This document shows positions 422 through 43,455 of a stretch of DNA of 64,000 nucleotides, in pieces. Positions within the stretch are counted from its first letter, which is position 1. Each line of letters starts with the position of its first letter. The position numbers were made by a program, and so were the translations under genes. Source of the stretch: a phage; sequence record PV730302.1; one strand, written 5' to 3'. The notes under the pieces were generated by a model. It worked only from the letters and a program-made list of their open reading frames with translations, did not search any database and was not told the origin of the DNA.

Positions 422-880
422 TCATTCTTTGTCCTCGAAGTGGATTACCGGACAGACCTTAGATTTACGAGCTTTAATGTATTGAATAACGATATTTTCT
501 TTAGTTTCTCGGCCTTCACGCTCAGCTTGAATACGTTGCCATTCCTTTTCTTCTCTACGGGCATCATACCATGCGTGTAAATTCATCGCACCGAATGCCA
601 AACCAATGGATAGCGCAATAATAAGAGCTATTGCAACCAATCCTAAAACAAACCCTAGACTCAACAGAACAGGGGTACTTAATACAAAGAAATGCTCTAA
701 TACACCAACACCTGCAACAGTTAATCCAAAAAGCGTACTACCTGCAACAACAGCACAAGCAAAACAAGCCCAAACCATTTTCCAGAAGTAAGCACATAAA
801 GAGTGCGGTCGAGAATGACTGTCATAAAAACGGTCATGAAGTTTAGCGTGCCAAGAGTTTGCATTGATAATCATAATCAT
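422..880 (-). CDS. small membrane protein (hypothetical)
   Basis: ORF track 152 aa; long hydrophobic segments consistent with 2-3 TM helices. Confidence 0.5.
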   Translation of the reverse strand: MIMIINANSWHAKLHDRFYDSHSRPHSLCAYFWKMVWACFACAVVAGSTLFGLTVAGVGVLEHFFVLSTPVLLSLGFVLGLVAIALIIALSIGLAFGAMNLHAWYDARREEKEWQRIQAEREGRETKENIVIQYIKARKSKVCPVIHFEDKE

Positions 881-3540: not shown

Positions 3541-4113
3541 TCAACTCGTTATTTCTATCCAGTGCTTCCTGCACAATGACACGTAAGAATCGTTGCCACC
3601 TATAGAAACTTGGGCTCCGTCCTTAATTGCAATACCATCTTGGATACGAGCCGTCATAGTAGCTTTACGGCCGCAATGGCACACACCTTTGTACTCAACG
3701 AGTTTATCTGCTGTAGCGAGTAATTCAGCAGAGCCAGGAAACAGTTTACCCTGAAAATCAGTTCTTAGCCCATAGCACATAACTGGAACATTATAATTGT
3801 CTACTATCTTTGCCAGTTGTTTTATCTGTGCAGGTTCTAAGAACTGTGCTTCATCCACAAATACACAGTGGATATCTTTTTGAGATTCAGCCCAACGATA
3901 GAACTCGTATAGGTCCATATCCGGAGTCACGGCATTAGCCTCTTGACTAATCCCTATACGAGACGAAATGCTATGGCTTGATTCTCTATTGTCTATCGCA
4001 GGCTTTAAAAGGAGTACGCCCATACCGCGTTCTTTGTAGTTATGAGCCGCTGTTAGCAATGAAGCGGTCTTCCCAGAATTCATCGCCGCATAGTGAAAAT
4101 AAAGTTGAGCCAT
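3541..4113 (-). CDS. tk: thymidine kinase
   Basis: 190 aa; P-loop MNSGKTASLL, C-terminal Cys cluster CHCGRKA...LCRKH; size matches T4 Tk. Confidence 0.9.
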   Translation of the reverse strand: MAQLYFHYAAMNSGKTASLLTAAHNYKERGMGVLLLKPAIDNRESSHSISSRIGISQEANAVTPDMDLYEFYRWAESQKDIHCVFVDEAQFLEPAQIKQLAKIVDNYNVPVMCYGLRTDFQGKLFPGSAELLATADKLVEYKGVCHCGRKATMTARIQDGIAIKDGAQVSIGGNDSYVSLCRKHWIEITS

Positions 4114-4122
4114 ATTACCTTC

Positions 4123-4329
4123 TTAAAGACTATTTACATAAGCAATTAATTCATTTTCTTTCTCATCAAATCGATTAGCAAATTCTTCCAGATGGTCGGC
4201 ATCTATAGGGCCATATTCATCATAAAAAGAATTTGCTTCTGCATGCTCATCTAGAAGTTCATGGATAAGCTCAAACAATTTATCTTTCTGCTCTTTACTC
4301 AGACTCATAACCATTGTACCTTTAAGCAA
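4123..4329 (-). CDS. hypothetical small acidic protein
   Basis: ORF track 68 aa. Confidence 0.35.
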   Translation of the reverse strand: MLKGTMVMSLSKEQKDKLFELIHELLDEHAEANSFYDEYGPIDADHLEEFANRFDEKENELIAYVNSL

Positions 4330-18843: not shown

Positions 18844-19308
18844 TTATTTGATTTGTTTAGCAGACCAGATACGGTCTTTGATGATTTTCTGAATATCTTC
18901 AACATACTCTAAGTCGTGAGCATGCGGATTATCTTTGAAGCTATGTGCTCGTGCTAGTTTCTGGCCTTCTGTTTTGATTACTAAAAGCTCTTTAAGAATT
19001 GCTTCATACTTAGAAATAATTCCTTTGGCGATATTTTTTTCTTGAGCGGCTTTAGGGTCTGCTTTTGTAGCAGGTGCTTTACCTGTAGCTTTCTGGAACA
19101 ATTCACCTGATGCAGCTAGGCTTTTAAAAACTCGGCTAACAGTATTAGCATTAGTAAAACCTTCGGCTTTAAAATCTCTAATAAAACGGAAACGTTCTTC
19201 ATCAGAGGCGTCTTTGTAAGAATATTTACCTGCTTGAATTGCTGCAATCGCAGCGGCTTTTACATCTGAACTAGATTGTTCAGTCAAAAATTCATTGTAA
19301 GTTTTCAT
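18844..19308 (-). CDS. internal-protein-like (CTS MKTYNEFLTE)
   Basis: 154 aa; N-terminal CTS-like decapeptide. Confidence 0.65.
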   Translation of the reverse strand: MKTYNEFLTEQSSSDVKAAAIAAIQAGKYSYKDASDEERFRFIRDFKAEGFTNANTVSRVFKSLAASGELFQKATGKAPATKADPKAAQEKNIAKGIISKYEAILKELLVIKTEGQKLARAHSFKDNPHAHDLEYVEDIQKIIKDRIWSAKQIK

Positions 19309-19353
19309 TATTATTTCCTAAGTTAATTAACTTATCTATTTATTATGCCAAAA

Positions 19354-19377
19354 AGCCCCAACCTTTCGGAAGGGGCT
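19354..19377 (-). terminator. intrinsic terminator hairpin, compensatory variant of the 18218 hairpin
   Basis: AGCCCC-AA-CC-TTTC-GG-AA-GGGGCT on plus strand with A-run upstream (U-run in minus sense); closes the tRNA region. Confidence 0.55.
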
Positions 19378-19758
19378 ATGCCTTGCGGCAACCTTGTCGG
19401 GGTTCCACCTGCTAGGCAAGTGTTTGTACGAAACGCCGGGATTCGAACCCGGTTATTAAGTAGTTGACGCTACTCAATATTTTTAAAAGGCCATATCTCG
19501 ACCATATCCGAACGTTCCGTCAAAAACGCTACTCGGCTTACGGCAAAGATATTTCCTCGAATCGATAATTCGGTGCGCCGTTTCTGCTGTGATGTAAGGG
19601 GACGTTAACAGATCGTAAAGATTTGTTAATGTCAGTCCTTATTCAGGGAACATCAGTCCGACGACTTACCGGTAGCGACCCGGTTTCTTGTTTGGTGCGC
19701 CGGTGAATGCTGGTAATCAGTCTTCATACGACGGCTTGACTATATAATAGTCTTCATT

Positions 19759-19833
19759 TGGTATCCCGCCCTGGGATCGAACCAGGACCGCAAACTTAGA
19801 AGGATCGTATGCTATCCATTACACCAGCGGGAC
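19759..19833 (-). tRNA. tRNA-Arg (anticodon TCT), CCA encoded
   Basis: manual fold of minus strand: 7-bp acceptor stem, T-loop TTCGATC, anticodon loop CTTCTAA. Confidence 0.85.
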
Positions 19834-19838
19834 ATAGT

Positions 19839-19915
19839 TGGTGACCCGGACCAGATTTGAACTGGTAACCTTTCCCTTATGAGGGGACTGCTTCTAACCA
19901 TTGAGCTACAGGGCC
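19839..19915 (-). tRNA. tRNA with CAT anticodon (elongator Met or lysidine-type Ile), CCA encoded
   Basis: manual fold: acceptor GGCCCTG, T-arm ACCAG-TTCAAAT-CTGGT, anticodon loop CTCATAA; 5 nt from tRNA-Arg. Confidence 0.8.
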
Positions 19916-19920
19916 TTAAT

Positions 19921-20187
19921 TTAAATTACAAATCCAGCAGGAGCATTATCATCTTTAGCCATGTGCTGAATTGTATGATAAGTCATTTCTTCAGGAGCAA
20001 CCAGATAAGCCGCAACGTTAACTAGTGGAATTATTTTTGGTTTAGCGAACGTGCTATCAGAAATTGCCATAAAGGGCTCGCCGTCTCGTTCAACTTCGCC
20101 AAATTGGCATTCATATGAAATAGAACAACGTTTGGTAGTTGTTGTCTTGGTTTTAGGGTCATAAAAAGCTAATTTTAATACTAACAT
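19921..20187 (-). CDS. hypothetical protein
   Basis: ORF track 88 aa. Confidence 0.4.
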   Translation of the reverse strand: MLVLKLAFYDPKTKTTTTKRCSISYECQFGEVERDGEPFMAISDSTFAKPKIIPLVNVAAYLVAPEEMTYHTIQHMAKDDNAPAGFVI

Positions 20188-20315
20188 AACACCTCAAATA
20201 AAATTAAGTAAAGTAAGTTTAATTAATAGACCTTGTCTATTATGAAAGGTTCTTTGAGGGAAGAACCTTTGGTAATAGAGGGTATTAATGATAGAGTAAT
20301 AATATCACATAATTC

Positions 20316-20600
20316 TTAAAGCATATTAATGTAATCAAGTTTAATAGAAGCAATCTTCAAAGGATTTTTAAAGATGTCGTATTCGACCAATCCGTTTTCA
20401 GTTGCGGTATAAAAAGTAAAGTTAACAGAATTATAACGTTGGCTGTTAACTTTGAGTTTAACGTCGCTTGAACTACGGCCAATATTAACCTGTTGGACAT
20501 CAAGCACGGCATCTTTGCCAAAGTTGCGAATCAGTAGCTCTGCTGCAACCTGGTCTGAATTATATCCATTCTCTGGATTAGTAACCTTAACGTATAGCAT
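20316..20600 (-). CDS. hypothetical protein
   Basis: ORF track 94 aa. Confidence 0.45.
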   Translation of the reverse strand: MLYVKVTNPENGYNSDQVAAELLIRNFGKDAVLDVQQVNIGRSSSDVKLKVNSQRYNSVNFTFYTATENGLVEYDIFKNPLKIASIKLDYINML

Positions 20601-25387: not shown

Positions 25388-25395
25388 TATTTATA
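25388..25395 (-). promoter_or_regulatory. late promoter TATAAATA (minus sense, gene 4)
   Basis: TATTTATA on plus strand, divergent from the gene 53 promoter. Confidence 0.6.
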
Positions 25396-40878: not shown

Positions 40879-42468
40879 ATGATTGACAAACTGAGTATTA
40901 AAGAACTTCCGTTTGTCGATGGTGTACCCGATGCATCCCAAGAGCGTATCCGTTGGATACGCAATGGAGAATGTATTGAAGGAGCCACGACTAAATACGG
41001 TCACGACGGTAATTTGAATGCCCCTGCTTTAGGAGTACAAACCAACGTAGTTAGATTAGAAGAAAACAGTATAGCTTCTAAAGACAAAATTAACGAGCTT
41101 GTGGATAACGTTAATTTGATTAATGAAGCCCTAGATATTTCTACTGATACGGCGGTTATTCAGCAAATTGAAAAGAACCGTGTCGATATACTGGCTGTGG
41201 ATGAAAAGGCTTCCGAAACTAAACAAGAATTAGGTGACTTAACCGTTAATTTTAATTTTTTAGAAGAAGATGTAGGTTATTATGACCCGGCTTTAGACGG
41301 GACTTATCTAACCGTCAGAGAAAATATAAATCTTCTTAAATCTGAAATTGGTCATTATGCGAACCAGGATATAAACAGCCAACCGCTTCCTCCAGGTGAA
41401 ACTTCTGAAGCCACCGGCATGAAACGTCGCATTATGGATAATACCAGTGCTATTGTCGACCATTCACAACGTATAGATACCCTTGAAAAGAATTACGAAG
41501 ATTCTGATGTAGGGCAACTTGGGCTTAAGATTAACGAAATTCGTGAAGAACTCGGCCCTCATATCGATACCATAGGTAAACAACCGGCGTATACCAGGAT
41601 TTCCACTCTTGAAACTGCTGCTGTAAGCTTTAACGAATCAATAGATTCTATCAAAACCAGTATAGGTTTTAATAAAGGCCCTATTGATACAAGAGTAACC
41701 ACTCTGGAAACTAAAACTTCAACTTTAGAAAACACCGTTAATACCGGTTTGGTTCCTAGAGTTACTGCAGTGGAAACCGCTATCGGTACGGCAGATGCCC
41801 CTACTTCTATTAATGGTAGATTAGGTGGCTTACGTACCGATGTTAATGAACTAAAAACTATAGTAGGTGCTAGTTCGTCTGAAGGGCTTCGTTTCCAGGT
41901 TTCCGATATAGACCGTAAAATTGGTGCCGATGTAAGTCCGGCTGCGGGAACAATTAATAAACGTTTGAATGACCTTACGACTCAAGGTAATACTTCAGCC
42001 TCAACTATTCAGGATTTACAGGCTGAAATTGGTAATAACCAAACAGGTATTAAAGGTTCTATTCTTAAAATTACCAACCAAATTGAAGGAACAAACCCTA
42101 ACGGTAGTACTGTAGAAGAACGAGGGCTAATAAACTCTGTTAAAGGCCTTGAAGCTCAAATGCCTACTAAATTGAGTGACGCCCCTGCTGATGGTAAATT
42201 GTACGGACGTAAAGATGCGGCATGGGCTGAAGTTGTTGATGCAGGTACAGAAATAGCTGCAGTAAAAGCTTCTTTAGTAGTTACTGATGGTGAGGTTGAT
42301 GATTTAGGAACTCGTTTAACTGCGGCTGAAGGTAAAATCACTGCACTAGAAACTGAGTTGGCTAAACGCCCTCCTGTTGCTCCTGTGGCTGACGGACTTC
42401 CGTATGTTCTGGTTGATAACGCATGGGTACTATTGTCAGATTTTGTGACTTTAAACCCAGCACCGTAA
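40879..42468 (+). CDS. wac: fibritin (whisker antigen control)
   Basis: 529 aa coiled-coil protein; foldon-like C-terminus PVADGLPYVLVDNAWVLLSDF. Confidence 0.85.
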   Translation: MIDKLSIKELPFVDGVPDASQERIRWIRNGECIEGATTKYGHDGNLNAPALGVQTNVVRLEENSIASKDKINELVDNVNLINEALDISTDTAVIQQIEKNRVDILAVDEKASETKQELGDLTVNFNFLEEDVGYYDPALDGTYLTVRENINLLKSEIGHYANQDINSQPLPPGETSEATGMKRRIMDNTSAIVDHSQRIDTLEKNYEDSDVGQLGLKINEIREELGPHIDTIGKQPAYTRISTLETAAVSFNESIDSIKTSIGFNKGPIDTRVTTLETKTSTLENTVNTGLVPRVTAVETAIGTADAPTSINGRLGGLRTDVNELKTIVGASSSEGLRFQVSDIDRKIGADVSPAAGTINKRLNDLTTQGNTSASTIQDLQAEIGNNQTGIKGSILKITNQIEGTNPNGSTVEERGLINSVKGLEAQMPTKLSDAPADGKLYGRKDAAWAEVVDAGTEIAAVKASLVVTDGEVDDLGTRLTAAEGKITALETELAKRPPVAPVADGLPYVLVDNAWVLLSDFVTLNPAP

Positions 42469-42473
42469 TAAAA

Positions 42474-42491
42474 GGGCTTCGGCCCTTTTTT
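42474..42491 (+). terminator. intrinsic terminator GGGC-UUCG-GCCC plus U6 after wac
   Basis: hairpin immediately followed by TTTTTT. Confidence 0.7.
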
Positions 42492-42493
42492 GC

Positions 42494-42501
42494 TATAAAT
42501 A
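42494..42501 (+). promoter_or_regulatory. late promoter TATAAATA (gene 13)
   Basis: exact octamer 22 nt upstream of gene 13 ATG. Confidence 0.7.
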
Positions 42502-42522
42502 CGGTTATTAGAGGAATAAAAC

Positions 42523-43455
42523 ATGGCAAGTGAATCATTTAACCCTAAGCAACTCAAGGACGCTATCCTGCGCCGCCTGGGTGCGCCGATTACAAATATT
42601 GAAGTAACTACAGACCAAGTATATGATTGCATCCAGCGAGCCCTAGAGCTCTACGGTGAGTACCATTATAACGGGTATAACAAAGGTTATCAGGCTTTTT
42701 ATATCGGCCATGACGATGAAGAAAAATTCCGTAATGGGGTATTTGACCTTAAAGGCCGTAATATATTTGCAGTGACACAAATTTTGAGAACCAATGTAGG
42801 TTCTTTAACATCTATGGATGGGCAAGCGACTTATCCGTGGTTTACTGATTTTGTATTAGGCTTAGCAGGTATTAATGGCGGGCTAGGGTCTTCGTGTAAC
42901 AGTTTTGGACCTAATGCCTTCGGCGCCGACCTTGGTTATTTTACCCAACTAATGCAATATCGTTCTATGATGCAGGACCTTTTGGTTCCACTACCTGATT
43001 ATTGGTATAACGATGCCACCGAACAGTTGAAGGTAATGGGTAACTTTGTTAAAGGCGATTTTATTGTAATTGAAGTTTATACTCGCTCTTTTAATGGGGT
43101 TGATTCTATGGTAGGAAATACCGTAGGATACGGTTATGCTTCAGCTTGTGGTGAAGATGCATGGAGCCCGGGTGCTATTTGGGATAATCCGGCGCGTCGT
43201 ATTTCTGGTATGCGTGTAGGTGAGGACCTTGGTCTTCAAGATGGTGCATATAATAACCGTTGGGTCAAAGATTATGCCACGGCATTGGTTAAAGAAGTCA
43301 ATGGTAATATTTTAGCCAAACACCAAGGCATGCAACTTGCAGGTGGAACCACCGTAGATGGCATTCGATTGATTGAAGAAGCTCGTTTAGAAAAAGAACG
43401 ACTTCGCGAGGAATTAGATTTACTCGACCCACCAACACCTATTTTAATTGGATAA
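42523..43455 (+). CDS. 13: neck protein gp13
   Basis: 310 aa (T4 309); synteny. Confidence 0.9.

What the first reader, a model, noticed from the sequence alone, without database searches (positions are those of the whole stretch)
19381..19758. About 380-nt ORF-free segment beside the tRNAs with a degenerate tRNA-like element
Plus strand 19435-19452 (GCCGGGATTCGAACCCGG) is the reverse complement of a canonical T-arm (CCGGG-TTCGAAT-CCCGG), but I could not fold a canonical cloverleaf around it: the anticodon-like loop is 6 or 8 nt and the acceptor pairing is poor. The motif GGTGCGCCG occurs twice (19571, 19694). T4 encodes small stable RNAs next to its tRNA cluster, so this could hold a tRNA pseudogene or stable RNAs.
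Basis: partly seen in the sequence, partly recalled or inferred. Interest (0 to 1): 0.4.

Follow-up and report, generated by a model that had tools for sequence, protein, structure and literature searches.

The report
T4-type stable RNAs rnaC and rnaD
The gene-free stretch next to the two tRNA genes holds this phage's copies of the two small stable RNAs that phage T4 makes from its tRNA operon (rnaC and rnaD, known since the 1970s, function still unknown), and the odd "tRNA-like" motif is the tRNA-shaped end of rnaC, so the finding is real but already known.

Summary
The T-arm is at 19435-19452, GGTGCGCCG occurs twice, and no ORF exceeds 40 aa.

The window is a Dhakavirus, a T4-like phage 99.8% identical to Escherichia phage 04086. 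The interval is the non-coding 3' end of its minus-strand tRNA operon.

After tRNA-Met and tRNA-Arg come:
- a 66-nt rnaD-like mini element, 19693-19758;
- rnaD (T4 species 2 RNA), 19572-19691, 85% identical to T4;
- rnaC (T4 species 1 RNA), 19427-19565, 138/139 identical to T4 and 100% to the annotated rnaC of phage GiZh;
- a structured trailer and an intrinsic terminator, 19350-19426.

Across 22 distinct homologues from several phage genera, rnaC folds as a covariation-supported cloverleaf:
- a 7-bp acceptor stem with two invariant U·U mismatches;
- a roughly 70-nt arm in place of the D-arm;
- a 6-nt loop in place of the anticodon loop;
- a canonical T-arm.

This explains why no tRNA finder calls it. 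rnaD is also structurally conserved.

Neither RNA is in Rfam, and neither motif was found in bacterial genomes. The two GGTGCGCCG copies are the 3' strands of rnaD and of the mini element. The mini element is the only unreported piece, and its status as an RNA is unproven. Function remains unknown.

The parts
19839..19915 (-). tRNA-Met (CAT). First RNA gene of the operon segment; context only.
   Evidence: ARAGORN; Rfam tRNA model, 51.8 bits.
19759..19833 (-). tRNA-Arg (TCT), T4-type sequence, with an encoded CCA ending at 19759. Context only.
   Evidence: ARAGORN; Rfam, 48.8 bits. It is the same tRNA-Arg type as in T4.
19693..19758 (-). 'Mini-D', a 66-nt rnaD-like element. It has a 6-bp AU-rich 5' hairpin, then AA, then a roughly 13-bp interrupted helix closed by GCCGUCG/CGGCGC, then an ACCA tail. 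It carries the second GGTGCGCCG copy (19694-19702). It is absent from T4, RB10 and GiZh. Whether it is a stable RNA or a recombination scar is unresolved.
   Evidence: Insertion relative to T4/RB10/GiZh. Fold -16.4 kcal/mol, z = -3.3, 0/200 shuffles as good. The rnaD covariance model aligns it end to end at 16.3 bits, E about 1.5e-4 in 1.2 kb. It is present, at 97% identity or more, in only 27 GenBank records and in loci L016-L018.
19572..19691 (-). rnaD, the homologue of T4 species 2 RNA (120 nt). From 5' to 3': a 7-nt leader; P1 hairpin ACCGG-GUCGCUA-CCGGU; closing helix P2 GUCGUCG/CGGCG(C)AC; conserved internal loops and helices P3 and P4; a variable distal hairpin. It carries the first GGTGCGCCG copy (19572-19580).
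   Evidence: Maps onto the annotated rnaD of T4 and RB10; 85.1% identical to T4 and 95% to GiZh. Fold. Covariation on 20 distinct sequences: 96.9% of cells paired, 8 pairs with changes on both sides, 0/500 shuffles as high.
19566..19571 (-). AU-rich spacer GAAUUA between rnaD and rnaC. Inferred to be a processing site.
   Evidence: Alignment. The processing role is inferred, not tested.
19427..19565 (-). rnaC, the homologue of T4 species 1 RNA (139 nt), with a tRNA-like cloverleaf topology. Acceptor stem 19558-19564 pairs with 19429-19435 (CGAUUCG/CGUUUCG, with a tandem U·U). Giant arm 2: 19488-19557. A-rich linker. Arm 3: 19454-19479, with the 6-nt loop CGUCAA. Discriminator U: 19428.
   Evidence: 138/139 identical to T4 rnaC and 139/139 to the annotated rnaC of GiZh. 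Fold -50.2 kcal/mol, z = -4.6. Covariation on 22 distinct sequences: 98.3% of cells paired, 26 of 40 pairs with changes on both sides, 0/500 shuffles as high; slid registers give 3-7.
19378..19426 (-). Conserved structured 3' trailer with three small hairpins (19406-19422, 19390-19404, 19380-19389). It is kept even in relatives that lack rnaC.
   Evidence: Fold. Conservation, with G-C to A-U changes in hairpin 3.
19350..19377 (-). Intrinsic terminator at the end of the tRNA/small-RNA operon: hairpin AGCCCCUUCC-GAAA-GGUUGGGGCU followed by a U5 tract.
   Evidence: Fold. The terminator annotated in phage GiZh maps to 19345-19376. In T4 the cluster transcript terminates after the species I gene (PMC2330249).

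Best explanation
The interval is the 3' non-coding end of the phage's tRNA operon, read on the minus strand. After tRNA-Met and tRNA-Arg it encodes a 66-nt rnaD-like mini element, then rnaD (T4 species 2 RNA), then rnaC (T4 species 1 RNA), then a structured trailer and an intrinsic terminator.

Shown here:
- Orthology to the annotated T4, RB10 and GiZh genes.
- A covariation-supported structure for both RNAs.
- rnaC is a tRNA-shaped molecule. It has an acceptor stem with two invariant U·U mismatches, an arm of about 70 nt where the D-arm would be, a hairpin with a 6-nt loop where the anticodon arm would be, a canonical T-arm and a discriminator U.
- These features explain why it looks like a tRNA but cannot be folded or called as one.

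Inferred from T4 (PMC2330249 and my recollection of the older literature): all these RNAs are made as one long precursor together with the tRNAs. The host's tRNA-maturation enzymes then cut them out. RNase P would recognise the acceptor/T-arm stack of rnaC, and RNase E plus exonucleases would act in the AU-rich spacers. The products accumulate as stable RNAs.

Their role in infection is not known. My best guess is that rnaC acts as a tRNA mimic that engages a tRNA-binding host or phage factor, and that rnaD is a separate protein-binding or defence-related RNA.

The mini element is most likely a partial, internally deleted duplicate of rnaD. It keeps only the outer frame (5' hairpin plus closing helix).
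For: Identity:
- The alignment to T4 maps T4 rnaD onto 19572-19691 and T4 rnaC onto 19427-19565. RB10 and GiZh annotations map to the same coordinates.
- rnaC identity to the window is 99.3% for T4 and 100% for GiZh; rnaD is 85-95% identical.
- About 770 T4-like genomes hold the segment.

rnaC structure:
- 22 distinct sequences from Tequatrovirus/Dhakavirus-type phages, Moonvirus, Karamvirus, Kanagawavirus, Winklervirus and Marfavirus.
- 40 pairs, 98.3% of cells paired, 26 pairs with changes on both sides (shuffles 15.3 ± 1.7, 0/500; slid registers 3-7).
- Acceptor pair 3:70 switches A-U to G-C (9 versus 13 sequences), while the tandem U·U never varies.
- Marfavirus-type copies encode U-CCA directly after the stem.

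rnaD structure:
- 20 sequences, 96.9% of cells paired, 8 pairs with changes on both sides, 0/500 shuffles as high.
- Divergent members in Moon-type and other T4-like contigs keep P1 and P2 through compensatory changes.

Operon context:
- The same strand and order as in T4, with a terminator hairpin plus U tract at 19350-19377.
- The T4 cluster is one primary transcript of about 1.75 kb, precursor of the tRNAs and of species I and II RNAs (PMC2330249).
- RNAC and RNAD were detected by RNA-seq, and at least RNAC was probed by Northern blot, in T4 infection (PMC9697503).

Mini element.
Against: - No expression data exist for this phage. Transcription, processing sites and stability are carried over from T4.
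- The 5' and 3' ends are those of GenBank annotations, not measured here.
- The involvement of RNase P at the rnaC 5' end rests on my memory of 1970s-80s work (the 'p2Sp1' precursor). I could not retrieve that work.
- rnaC ends U-ACA in T4-like phages, not U-CCA, so a functional CCA end is not assured.
- rnaC is precisely absent from several close relatives, including IME08, L011, L017, L018, L021 and L023. It is therefore dispensable in at least some lineages.
- The proposed tRNA-mimic function is a guess. Reviews and recent papers state that the functions are unknown (PMC3014915; PMC9697503; PMC12685909).
- The mini element lacks the family's conserved internal motifs GUUCCCUG and AUCACAGC.
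- Most copies of the mini element end AACA rather than ACCA.
- Its covariance-model score of 16.3 bits is only a little above tRNA T-arm false positives, which reach 12.8 bits.
Confidence: 0.9

Rival explanations
1. The T-arm belongs to a decaying tRNA pseudogene left next to the tRNA cluster. The rest of the interval would then be non-functional spacer.
For: A perfect T-arm sits next to real tRNAs. No tRNA finder calls it. There is a weak tRNA-Sec-like alignment at 17 bits.
Against: The element is conserved over its full 139 nt in several genera, with 26 compensatory pairs and invariant non-canonical features.

The tRNA-Sec-type acceptor pairing (columns 48-55 with 137-144) shows no compensatory change and scores below every shuffle. 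At one of its pairs, 12 of 22 sequences are unpaired.

In T4 the region is a known, expressed RNA gene.
Confidence: 0.03
2. The interval encodes small proteins. Many GenBank records annotate one to four 'hypothetical proteins' here.
For: ORFs of 27-40 aa exist on both strands. Many deposited genomes annotate hypothetical proteins under the match.
Against: Close relatives differ by single-base indels inside these ORFs, for example TTGCC-TAGC versus TTGCCTTAGC in the trailer.

Substitutions follow RNA pairing rather than codon structure.

Whole modules are swapped or deleted without regard to reading frame.

Curated T4-family records annotate ncRNAs instead.
Confidence: 0.02
3. The mini element (19693-19758) is an independent third small stable RNA of this phage subgroup. 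It would be a minimal rnaD paralogue, or an RNase P/CCA-type minihelix, released from the precursor between tRNA-Arg and rnaD.
For: - The fold is stable relative to shuffles (z = -3.3).
- It has the same outer architecture as rnaD and is aligned end to end by the rnaD model.
- It sits exactly where a tRNA sits in relatives, and in this window it ends in ACCA followed by the same AACAAGAAACC leader.
- The three sequence variants seen all fall in unpaired positions.
- In genuine rnaD relatives, the size of the central domain and of the P1 loop varies widely.
Against: - Only 27 near-identical copies are known, so no covariation test is possible.
- It lacks the conserved core motifs of the family.
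- Most copies have AACA, not ACCA.
- The model score is weak.
- T4 looks like the same junction without it (CCA-AAUGA-GAAACC), which is compatible with a simple insertion, deletion or recombination scar.
Confidence: 0.3
4. rnaC, rnaD and the trailer have no function in trans. They would be cis-acting structured modules that punctuate and protect the polycistronic tRNA precursor, acting as processing signals or 3' exonuclease barriers. They would accumulate merely as stable by-products.
For: - They always sit inside or at the end of tRNA clusters, directly after a tRNA CCA end or a stop codon.
- rnaC can be lost precisely without disturbing the neighbours.
- No function has been found in 50 years.
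Against: - Loops and internal loops are strongly conserved: GUCGCUA, GUUCCCUG and AUCACAGC in rnaD; CGUCAA, UUGAC and the tandem U·U in rnaC. A mere barrier would not need these.
- rnaD was transferred into an unrelated Vequintavirinae phage.
- An rnaD SNP arose in all evolved lines of a T4-like phage adapting to a semi-permissive host (PMC12685909).
Confidence: 0.2

Closest known systems
Bacteriophage T4 rnaC (species 1 RNA; NC_000866 70908-71046)
   Same: Identical at 138 of 139 positions. Same strand and same order: after rnaD, before the operon terminator. Same length. The annotated rnaC of phage GiZh is 100% identical.
   Different: Nothing of substance differs. The RNA lies in a Dhakavirus genome whose tRNA cluster has only two tRNAs, against T4's eight. 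It is not annotated in the nearest GenBank record.
Bacteriophage T4 rnaD (species 2 RNA; NC_000866 71053-71171)
   Same: 85% identical over the full length, with the same helices P1-P4 and the same conserved loops. It lies between tRNA-Arg and rnaC.
   Different: It is separated from tRNA-Arg by the 66-nt mini element, whereas T4 has a 1-nt spacer. The 3' tail reads ACCG, against ACCA in T4.
Canonical tRNA
   Same: Cloverleaf order of four helices, a 7-pair acceptor stem, a canonical T-arm GGUUCGAAUCC, a discriminator base, and (in Marfavirus-type copies) an encoded CCA.
   Different: Two invariant U·U mismatches in the acceptor stem, an arm of about 70 nt in place of the D-arm, an A-rich linker, and a 9-10 bp arm with a 6-nt loop instead of a 5-bp anticodon stem with a 7-nt loop. 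It is not called by ARAGORN or by the Rfam tRNA model.
tRNA-like domains of non-tRNA RNAs and non-tRNA RNase P substrates (tmRNA tRNA-like domain, plant-virus 3' tRNA-like structures, pre-4.5S RNA, phage M3 and C4 RNAs; listed in PMC11143913)
   Same: An acceptor/T-arm mimic attached to a non-tRNA body (rnaC). A hairpin with an ACCA-type tail (mini element, rnaD). Both are the kind of substrate that RNase P and the CCA-adding enzyme accept.
   Different: There is no sequence or model similarity. ARAGORN finds no tmRNA and Rfam has no hit. No tag reading frame or pseudoknots are evident. The resemblance is architectural only, and processing was not tested.

Membership tests
T4 rnaC (species 1 RNA) | Full-length sequence homology to the T4 gene | tested here: met
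   138/139 identical to T4 and 139/139 to the annotated rnaC of GiZh.
T4 rnaC (species 1 RNA) | Position at the distal end of the tRNA cluster, on the same strand, followed by the operon terminator | tested here: met
   The order is tRNA-Arg, (mini-D), rnaD, rnaC, trailer, terminator, all on the minus strand.
T4 rnaC (species 1 RNA) | Accumulates as a stable RNA of about 140 nt cut out of the tRNA precursor | not testable with these tools
   Known for T4 (PMC2330249; PMC9697503). There are no expression data for this phage.
T4 rnaD (species 2 RNA) | Full-length sequence and structure homology to the T4 gene | tested here: met
   85.1% identity to T4. The consensus helices are kept, with compensatory changes across 20 sequences.
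T4 rnaD (species 2 RNA) | Lies directly downstream of a tRNA (or a stop codon) and upstream of rnaC or the trailer | tested here: met
   This holds in the relatives. In the window the upstream neighbour is the ACCA-ended mini element, not the tRNA itself.
rnaD family, as applied to the mini element 19693-19758 | Conserved core motifs AAGUCGUC, GUUCCCUG, AUCACAGC and GGCGCA with helices P1-P4 | tested here: not met
   Only AAG(C)CGUCG, CGGCGCACC, P1 and P2 are present. P3, P4 and their motifs are missing. The model score is 16.3 bits. It is therefore described as rnaD-derived, not as a member.
Canonical tRNA / tRNA pseudogene | Cloverleaf with a 3-4 bp D-stem, a 5-bp anticodon stem with a 7-nt loop, and a fully paired acceptor stem; detected by tRNA models | tested here: not met
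   There is no ARAGORN or Rfam tRNA call. The loop is 6 nt, arm 2 is about 70 nt and the acceptor has a tandem U·U. The conservation pattern excludes a decaying pseudogene.
tmRNA | tRNA-like domain plus a tag-peptide reading frame and pseudoknots | tested here: not met
   ARAGORN reports no tmRNA in the window. There is no Rfam tmRNA hit even at E up to 10.
Any Rfam 15 family | Score at or above the family gathering threshold | tested here: not met
   Only the two tRNAs pass. All other hits in 19250-19950 are far below threshold.

The most novel reading that the evidence does not exclude
rnaC is a conserved tRNA mimic with a deliberately imperfect acceptor stem. rnaD was horizontally transferred and was mutated in all evolved lines during adaptation to a semi-permissive host. 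One reading that the evidence does not exclude is that these RNAs, and perhaps the mini element, are trans-acting decoys or inhibitors aimed at host factors that bind or cut tRNAs. Candidate targets are tRNA-targeting defence nucleases, RNase P, the CCA-adding enzyme, or modification enzymes. In that case the tRNA operons of T4-like phages would carry an RNA-based counter-defence module.
Probability: 0.15. Interest if true: 0.7.

Novelty: already known. Interest (0 to 1): 0.22.

Why it matters
For the scan, this closes the finding. The ORF-free segment is the rnaC/rnaD locus that has been known in T4 since the 1970s. It is neither a new element nor a tRNA pseudogene.

Three by-products may be useful.
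- Covariation-supported secondary structures now exist for both RNAs. Neither is represented in Rfam 15.
- Family boundaries are clearer. rnaC occurs in at least six genera, including Marfavirus, which is not classified in Straboviridae (the T4 family). rnaD occurs across Tevenvirinae and once in Vequintavirinae. The motifs of both RNAs found no match in one genome for each of 185,579 bacterial and archaeal species.
- Many deposited T4-like genomes annotate spurious hypothetical proteins over these RNA genes, and the nearest relative annotates nothing there.

The structural models also point to testable features of two RNAs whose function is still unknown after 50 years. These are the invariant tandem U·U in rnaC, its conserved hexaloop, and the conserved internal loops of rnaD.

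Tried and rejected
- Rfam sub-threshold hits in the interval (tRNA-Sec 17 bits, isrK 16.2, SNORD20, plastid UTR families). All are far below gathering scores. The tRNA-Sec register was tested on 22 sequences and rejected: no compensatory change, and below every shuffle.
- Literature searches for 'species 1 RNA' plus 'bacteriophage T4' and for 'p2Sp1' returned nothing relevant. The Miller 2003 T4 genome review (PMC150520) is not held. Three search or find calls failed because a term was too short. Hits in PMC10468400, PMC13454534 and PMC13414033 were false matches such as 'RNACoenzyme', 'RNAClean' and 'RNAcofold'.
- The sigma-70 promoter scan of 19200-20400 gave no more sites than shuffles. The simple terminator scan missed the real minus-strand terminator because of its internal U·U loop. 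The terminator was confirmed by folding and by the GiZh annotation instead.
- No minus-strand T4 late-promoter motif TATAAATA lies nearer than 25388-25395. A dedicated late promoter for these RNAs was therefore not found in this phage.
- A first viral-contig pattern for rnaC used a wrong gap length and found nothing. The corrected pattern found 13 loci.
- A 15-base rnaD pattern gave mostly chance hits. The 74 newly fetched loci were filtered with the covariance model, which left 6 true hits.
- Bacterial and archaeal genome scans for the rnaD core and for rnaC both gave 0 hits.
- An rnaD-loop/rnaC kissing interaction (CGCUAC with GUAGCG) was considered. I dropped it because the 6-mer is expected by chance, the rnaC partner bases lie in stems, and each RNA occurs without the other in some phages.
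- The third CGGCGCACC copy at 42580 lies inside long ORFs and is probably chance.

Full report
**What is in the sequence**

- Plus-strand 19435-19452 reads GCCGGGATTCGAACCCGG, the reverse complement of a T-arm.
- GGTGCGCCG occurs at 19572-19580 and 19694-19702, with a third copy at 42580 inside long ORFs. That is 3 matches against 0.11 expected.
- No ORF of 60 aa or more lies between the 154-aa gene ending at 19308 and the 88-aa gene starting at 19921. Only four ORFs of 27-40 aa are present.
- ARAGORN and Rfam call only tRNA-Arg(TCT) at 19759-19833 and tRNA-Met(CAT) at 19839-19915, both on the minus strand.
- A permissive Rfam search of 19250-19950 gives nothing near a gathering score. The best hit over the T-arm is tRNA-Sec at 17 bits against 47.

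**Identity**

The 421-nt query (19340-19760) matches 766 phage records, nearly all T4-like. The best match is Escherichia phage 04086 at 99.8%, a Dhakavirus of the Tevenvirinae.

Records with curated annotation place ncRNA genes under the match:
- rnaC ('small stable RNA; species 1 RNA') in GiZh;
- rnaC and rnaD ('species II RNA') in RB10;
- rnaC and rnaD in T4 itself, downstream of tRNA-Arg.

Aligning the window's minus strand to these records and transferring the coordinates gives rnaD at 19572-19691 and rnaC at 19427-19565. The terminator annotated in GiZh maps to 19345-19376.

Identities to the window:

| RNA | T4 | RB10 | GiZh |
|---|---|---|---|
| rnaC | 138/139 | 138/139 | 139/139 |
| rnaD | 85.1% | 90% | 95% |

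The first GGTGCGCCG copy is the 3' end of rnaD.

**rnaC is a tRNA-shaped RNA, not a tRNA and not a pseudogene**

The window copy folds at -50.2 kcal/mol (z = -4.6).

I collected homologues from:
- Moonvirus, Karamvirus, Kanagawavirus, Winklervirus and Marfavirus records;
- viral contigs found with a structure-spanning pattern.

This gave 22 distinct sequences. RNAalifold on them predicts 40 pairs. Counted on the alignment:
- 98.3% of cells are paired;
- 26 pairs carry changes on both sides (shuffles 15.3 ± 1.7, 0/500; slid registers 3-7);
- the covariation score is 0.50 against 0.24 for shuffles.

The topology is a cloverleaf:
- a 7-position acceptor stem, CG(A/G)UUCG with CGUU(U/C)CG; pair 3:70 switches between A-U and G-C, and positions 4:69 and 5:68 are U·U in every sequence;
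- an arm of about 70 nt in the D-arm position, whose sequence is wholly replaced in some genera while its pairs are kept;
- an A-rich single-stranded linker;
- a 9-10 bp arm with the hexaloop CG(U/C)CAA;
- one nucleotide, then a canonical T-arm, then a discriminator U.

Marfavirus-type copies continue U-CCA, whereas T4-type copies continue U-ACA.

The alternative pairing suggested by the Rfam tRNA-Sec alignment shows no compensatory change and falls below all shuffles. Their conservation rules out a decaying pseudogene.

**rnaD is also a conserved structured RNA**

Twenty distinct sequences came from annotated records and 14 viral contigs. Their consensus comprises:
- a 7-nt leader;
- hairpin P1, 5 bp, with the loop GUCGCUA invariant in the T4/Dhakavirus group;
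- AA;
- closing helix P2 (GUCGUCG with CGGCG-C-AC);
- P3 and P4, with conserved internal-loop sequences;
- a distal hairpin.

In this set, 96.9% of cells are paired and 8 pairs carry changes on both sides, with 0/500 shuffles as high.

The distal hairpin exists in at least three unrelated sequence versions.

A covariance model built from this alignment (R1) finds further, divergent members:
- in Moon-type contigs, 100-101 nt long, with P1 UCCAUGA/UCAUGGA and P2 GUCGUCC/GGGCGCA;
- in other T4-like contigs, with a 48-nt insertion in P1.

One Vequintavirinae phage, A5-4, carries an rnaD directly after a tRNA. Its distal hairpin is of the IME08 (Dhakavirus) type, which indicates horizontal transfer.

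Patterns for the rnaD core and for rnaC found nothing in one genome for each of 185,579 bacterial and archaeal species.

**The extra 66 nt (mini-D)**

Between tRNA-Arg and rnaD the window has 19693-19758, which T4, RB10 and GiZh lack.

It folds at -16.4 kcal/mol (z = -3.3) into:
- a 6-bp hairpin;
- AA;
- an interrupted helix closed by GCCGUCG/CGGCGC;
- an ACCA tail.

This is the same outer frame as rnaD and includes the second GGTGCGCCG copy. The rnaD model aligns it end to end, with the central 76 positions replaced by 24 nt. The score is 16.3 bits, E about 1.5e-4 in a 1.2-kb search.

Points against treating it as a family member:
- tRNA T-arms give false positives of up to 12.8 bits with the same model;
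- it lacks GUUCCCUG and AUCACAGC, which are conserved in all true members;
- it occurs in only 27 GenBank records and three viral contigs, all at 97% identity or more, so covariation cannot be tested;
- most copies end AACA, not ACCA.

The three variants seen all fall in unpaired positions. I regard it as an rnaD-derived partial duplicate. Whether it accumulates as an RNA is open; I put the probability at about 0.3.

**The rest of the interval**

The segment 19378-19426 is a conserved trailer of three small hairpins, followed by the terminator hairpin and U tract at 19350-19377. The trailer is retained, with some compensatory changes, even in relatives where rnaC is precisely deleted. In those relatives the junction reads ...GCACCGAA|CACUUGCC....

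**How it most likely works**

Shown here: gene identity, order, strand, structures and the terminator.

Taken from T4 work:
- The tRNA cluster is transcribed as one primary transcript of about 1.75 kb. It is the precursor of the tRNAs and of species I and II RNAs, and it ends after the species I gene (PMC2330249).
- RNAC and RNAD behave as late RNAs, and RNAC was probed by Northern blot (PMC9697503).
- RNase P processes T4 tRNA precursors and also several non-tRNA hairpin or tRNA-like substrates. T4 tRNAs that lack CCA have it added (PMC11143913).

Inference: the acceptor/T-arm stack of rnaC makes it an RNase P substrate, and the AU-rich spacers are cut by RNase E and trimmed. I recall a 'p2Sp1' precursor from the older literature but could not retrieve it.

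Function is unknown according to every source I could read. One recent paper reports the same rnaD SNP in all evolved lines of a T4-like phage adapting to a semi-permissive host (PMC12685909).

My best guess is a tRNA mimic that engages a tRNA-binding factor. That is a guess, and a purely cis-acting role in processing or protection remains possible.

**Comparison and verdict**

The locus passes every testable membership criterion for T4 rnaC and rnaD. It fails those for canonical tRNA, tRNA pseudogene, tmRNA and every Rfam family.

The only new items are:
- covariation-supported structures;
- the wider distribution;
- the modular gain and loss of parts;
- the unproven mini element.

Noticed in passing
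L008 (IME08) 781-790; also L011, L017, L018, L021, L023: rnaC is precisely absent from several Dhakavirus-type relatives. There rnaD runs straight into the conserved trailer (...GCACCGAA|CACUUGCC...). rnaC therefore behaves as a dispensable cassette.
   Followed up: partly
L009 (Escherichia phage A5-4, Vequintavirinae) 698-818, minus strand: A clear rnaD homologue (119 bits with model R1) lies directly after a tRNA in a phage of a different subfamily. Its distal hairpin is of the IME08 (Dhakavirus) type, which suggests horizontal transfer. It was the only non-Straboviridae record identified among 731 rnaD matches, of which only a sample was listed.
   Followed up: partly
L026, L027 (Klebsiella Marfavirus phages) 425-573; L042 1721-1870; L047 12182-12330: rnaC homologues occur outside Straboviridae. 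Unlike the T4-type copies, which read U-ACA, these encode U-CCA immediately after the acceptor stem.
   Followed up: partly
Alignment A4 columns 50-100 (window 19590-19645): The distal hairpin of rnaD exists in at least three unrelated sequence versions: the T4/window type, the IME08/A5-4 type and the L013/L018 type. All sit on an otherwise conserved frame, so the hairpin behaves as a swappable module.
   Followed up: partly
L010, minus strand, the ~80 nt directly downstream of rnaD (rnaD = 4103-4223): In this T4-like contig rnaC is replaced by two tandem hairpin repeats (GAGCGG.NGGUGC.NCCGGUA). The first contains GGUGCGCC, the exact complement of the rnaD 3' strand GGCGCACC. This could allow an alternative pairing.
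   Followed up: no
Window 19336-19706, and many GenBank relatives: Many deposited T4-like genomes annotate one to four 'hypothetical proteins' over rnaC and rnaD. The nearest record (phage 04086) annotates nothing there. These ORFs are very probably spurious.
   Followed up: partly
Window 19759-19915, compared with L001/L002/L003: This phage has only two tRNA genes in the cluster (Met, Arg), against 8 in T4 and 10 in RB10 and GiZh. Its tRNA-Arg is the T4 sequence type, not the RB10/GiZh/IME08 type. The mini element was seen only in phages that have the T4-type tRNA-Arg; T4 itself has that tRNA-Arg without the mini element.
   Followed up: partly
Window 19481-19489 (rnaC linker, minus strand): The single-stranded linker of T4-type rnaC contains CUUUUAA. 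From memory, this is the anticodon-loop sequence of E. coli tRNA-Lys(UUU), the target of the PrrC anticodon nuclease. It is not conserved in other genera (CUUUGAA, CUUACAA, CUUAUAA) and is not presented in a 7-nt loop, so it is probably chance.
   Followed up: partly
Window 19318-19345, minus strand: Just downstream of the terminator the window reads CAUAAUAAAUAG. Relatives have a perfect T4 late-promoter box TATAAATA at the same place, upstream of the next gene (18844-19308, phrog_2280, unknown function).
   Followed up: no
Window 42580-42588, minus strand: A third exact copy of CGGCGCACC lies inside overlapping long ORFs (42156-42632 on the minus strand, 42523-43455 on the plus strand). It is probably chance.
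   Followed up: partly
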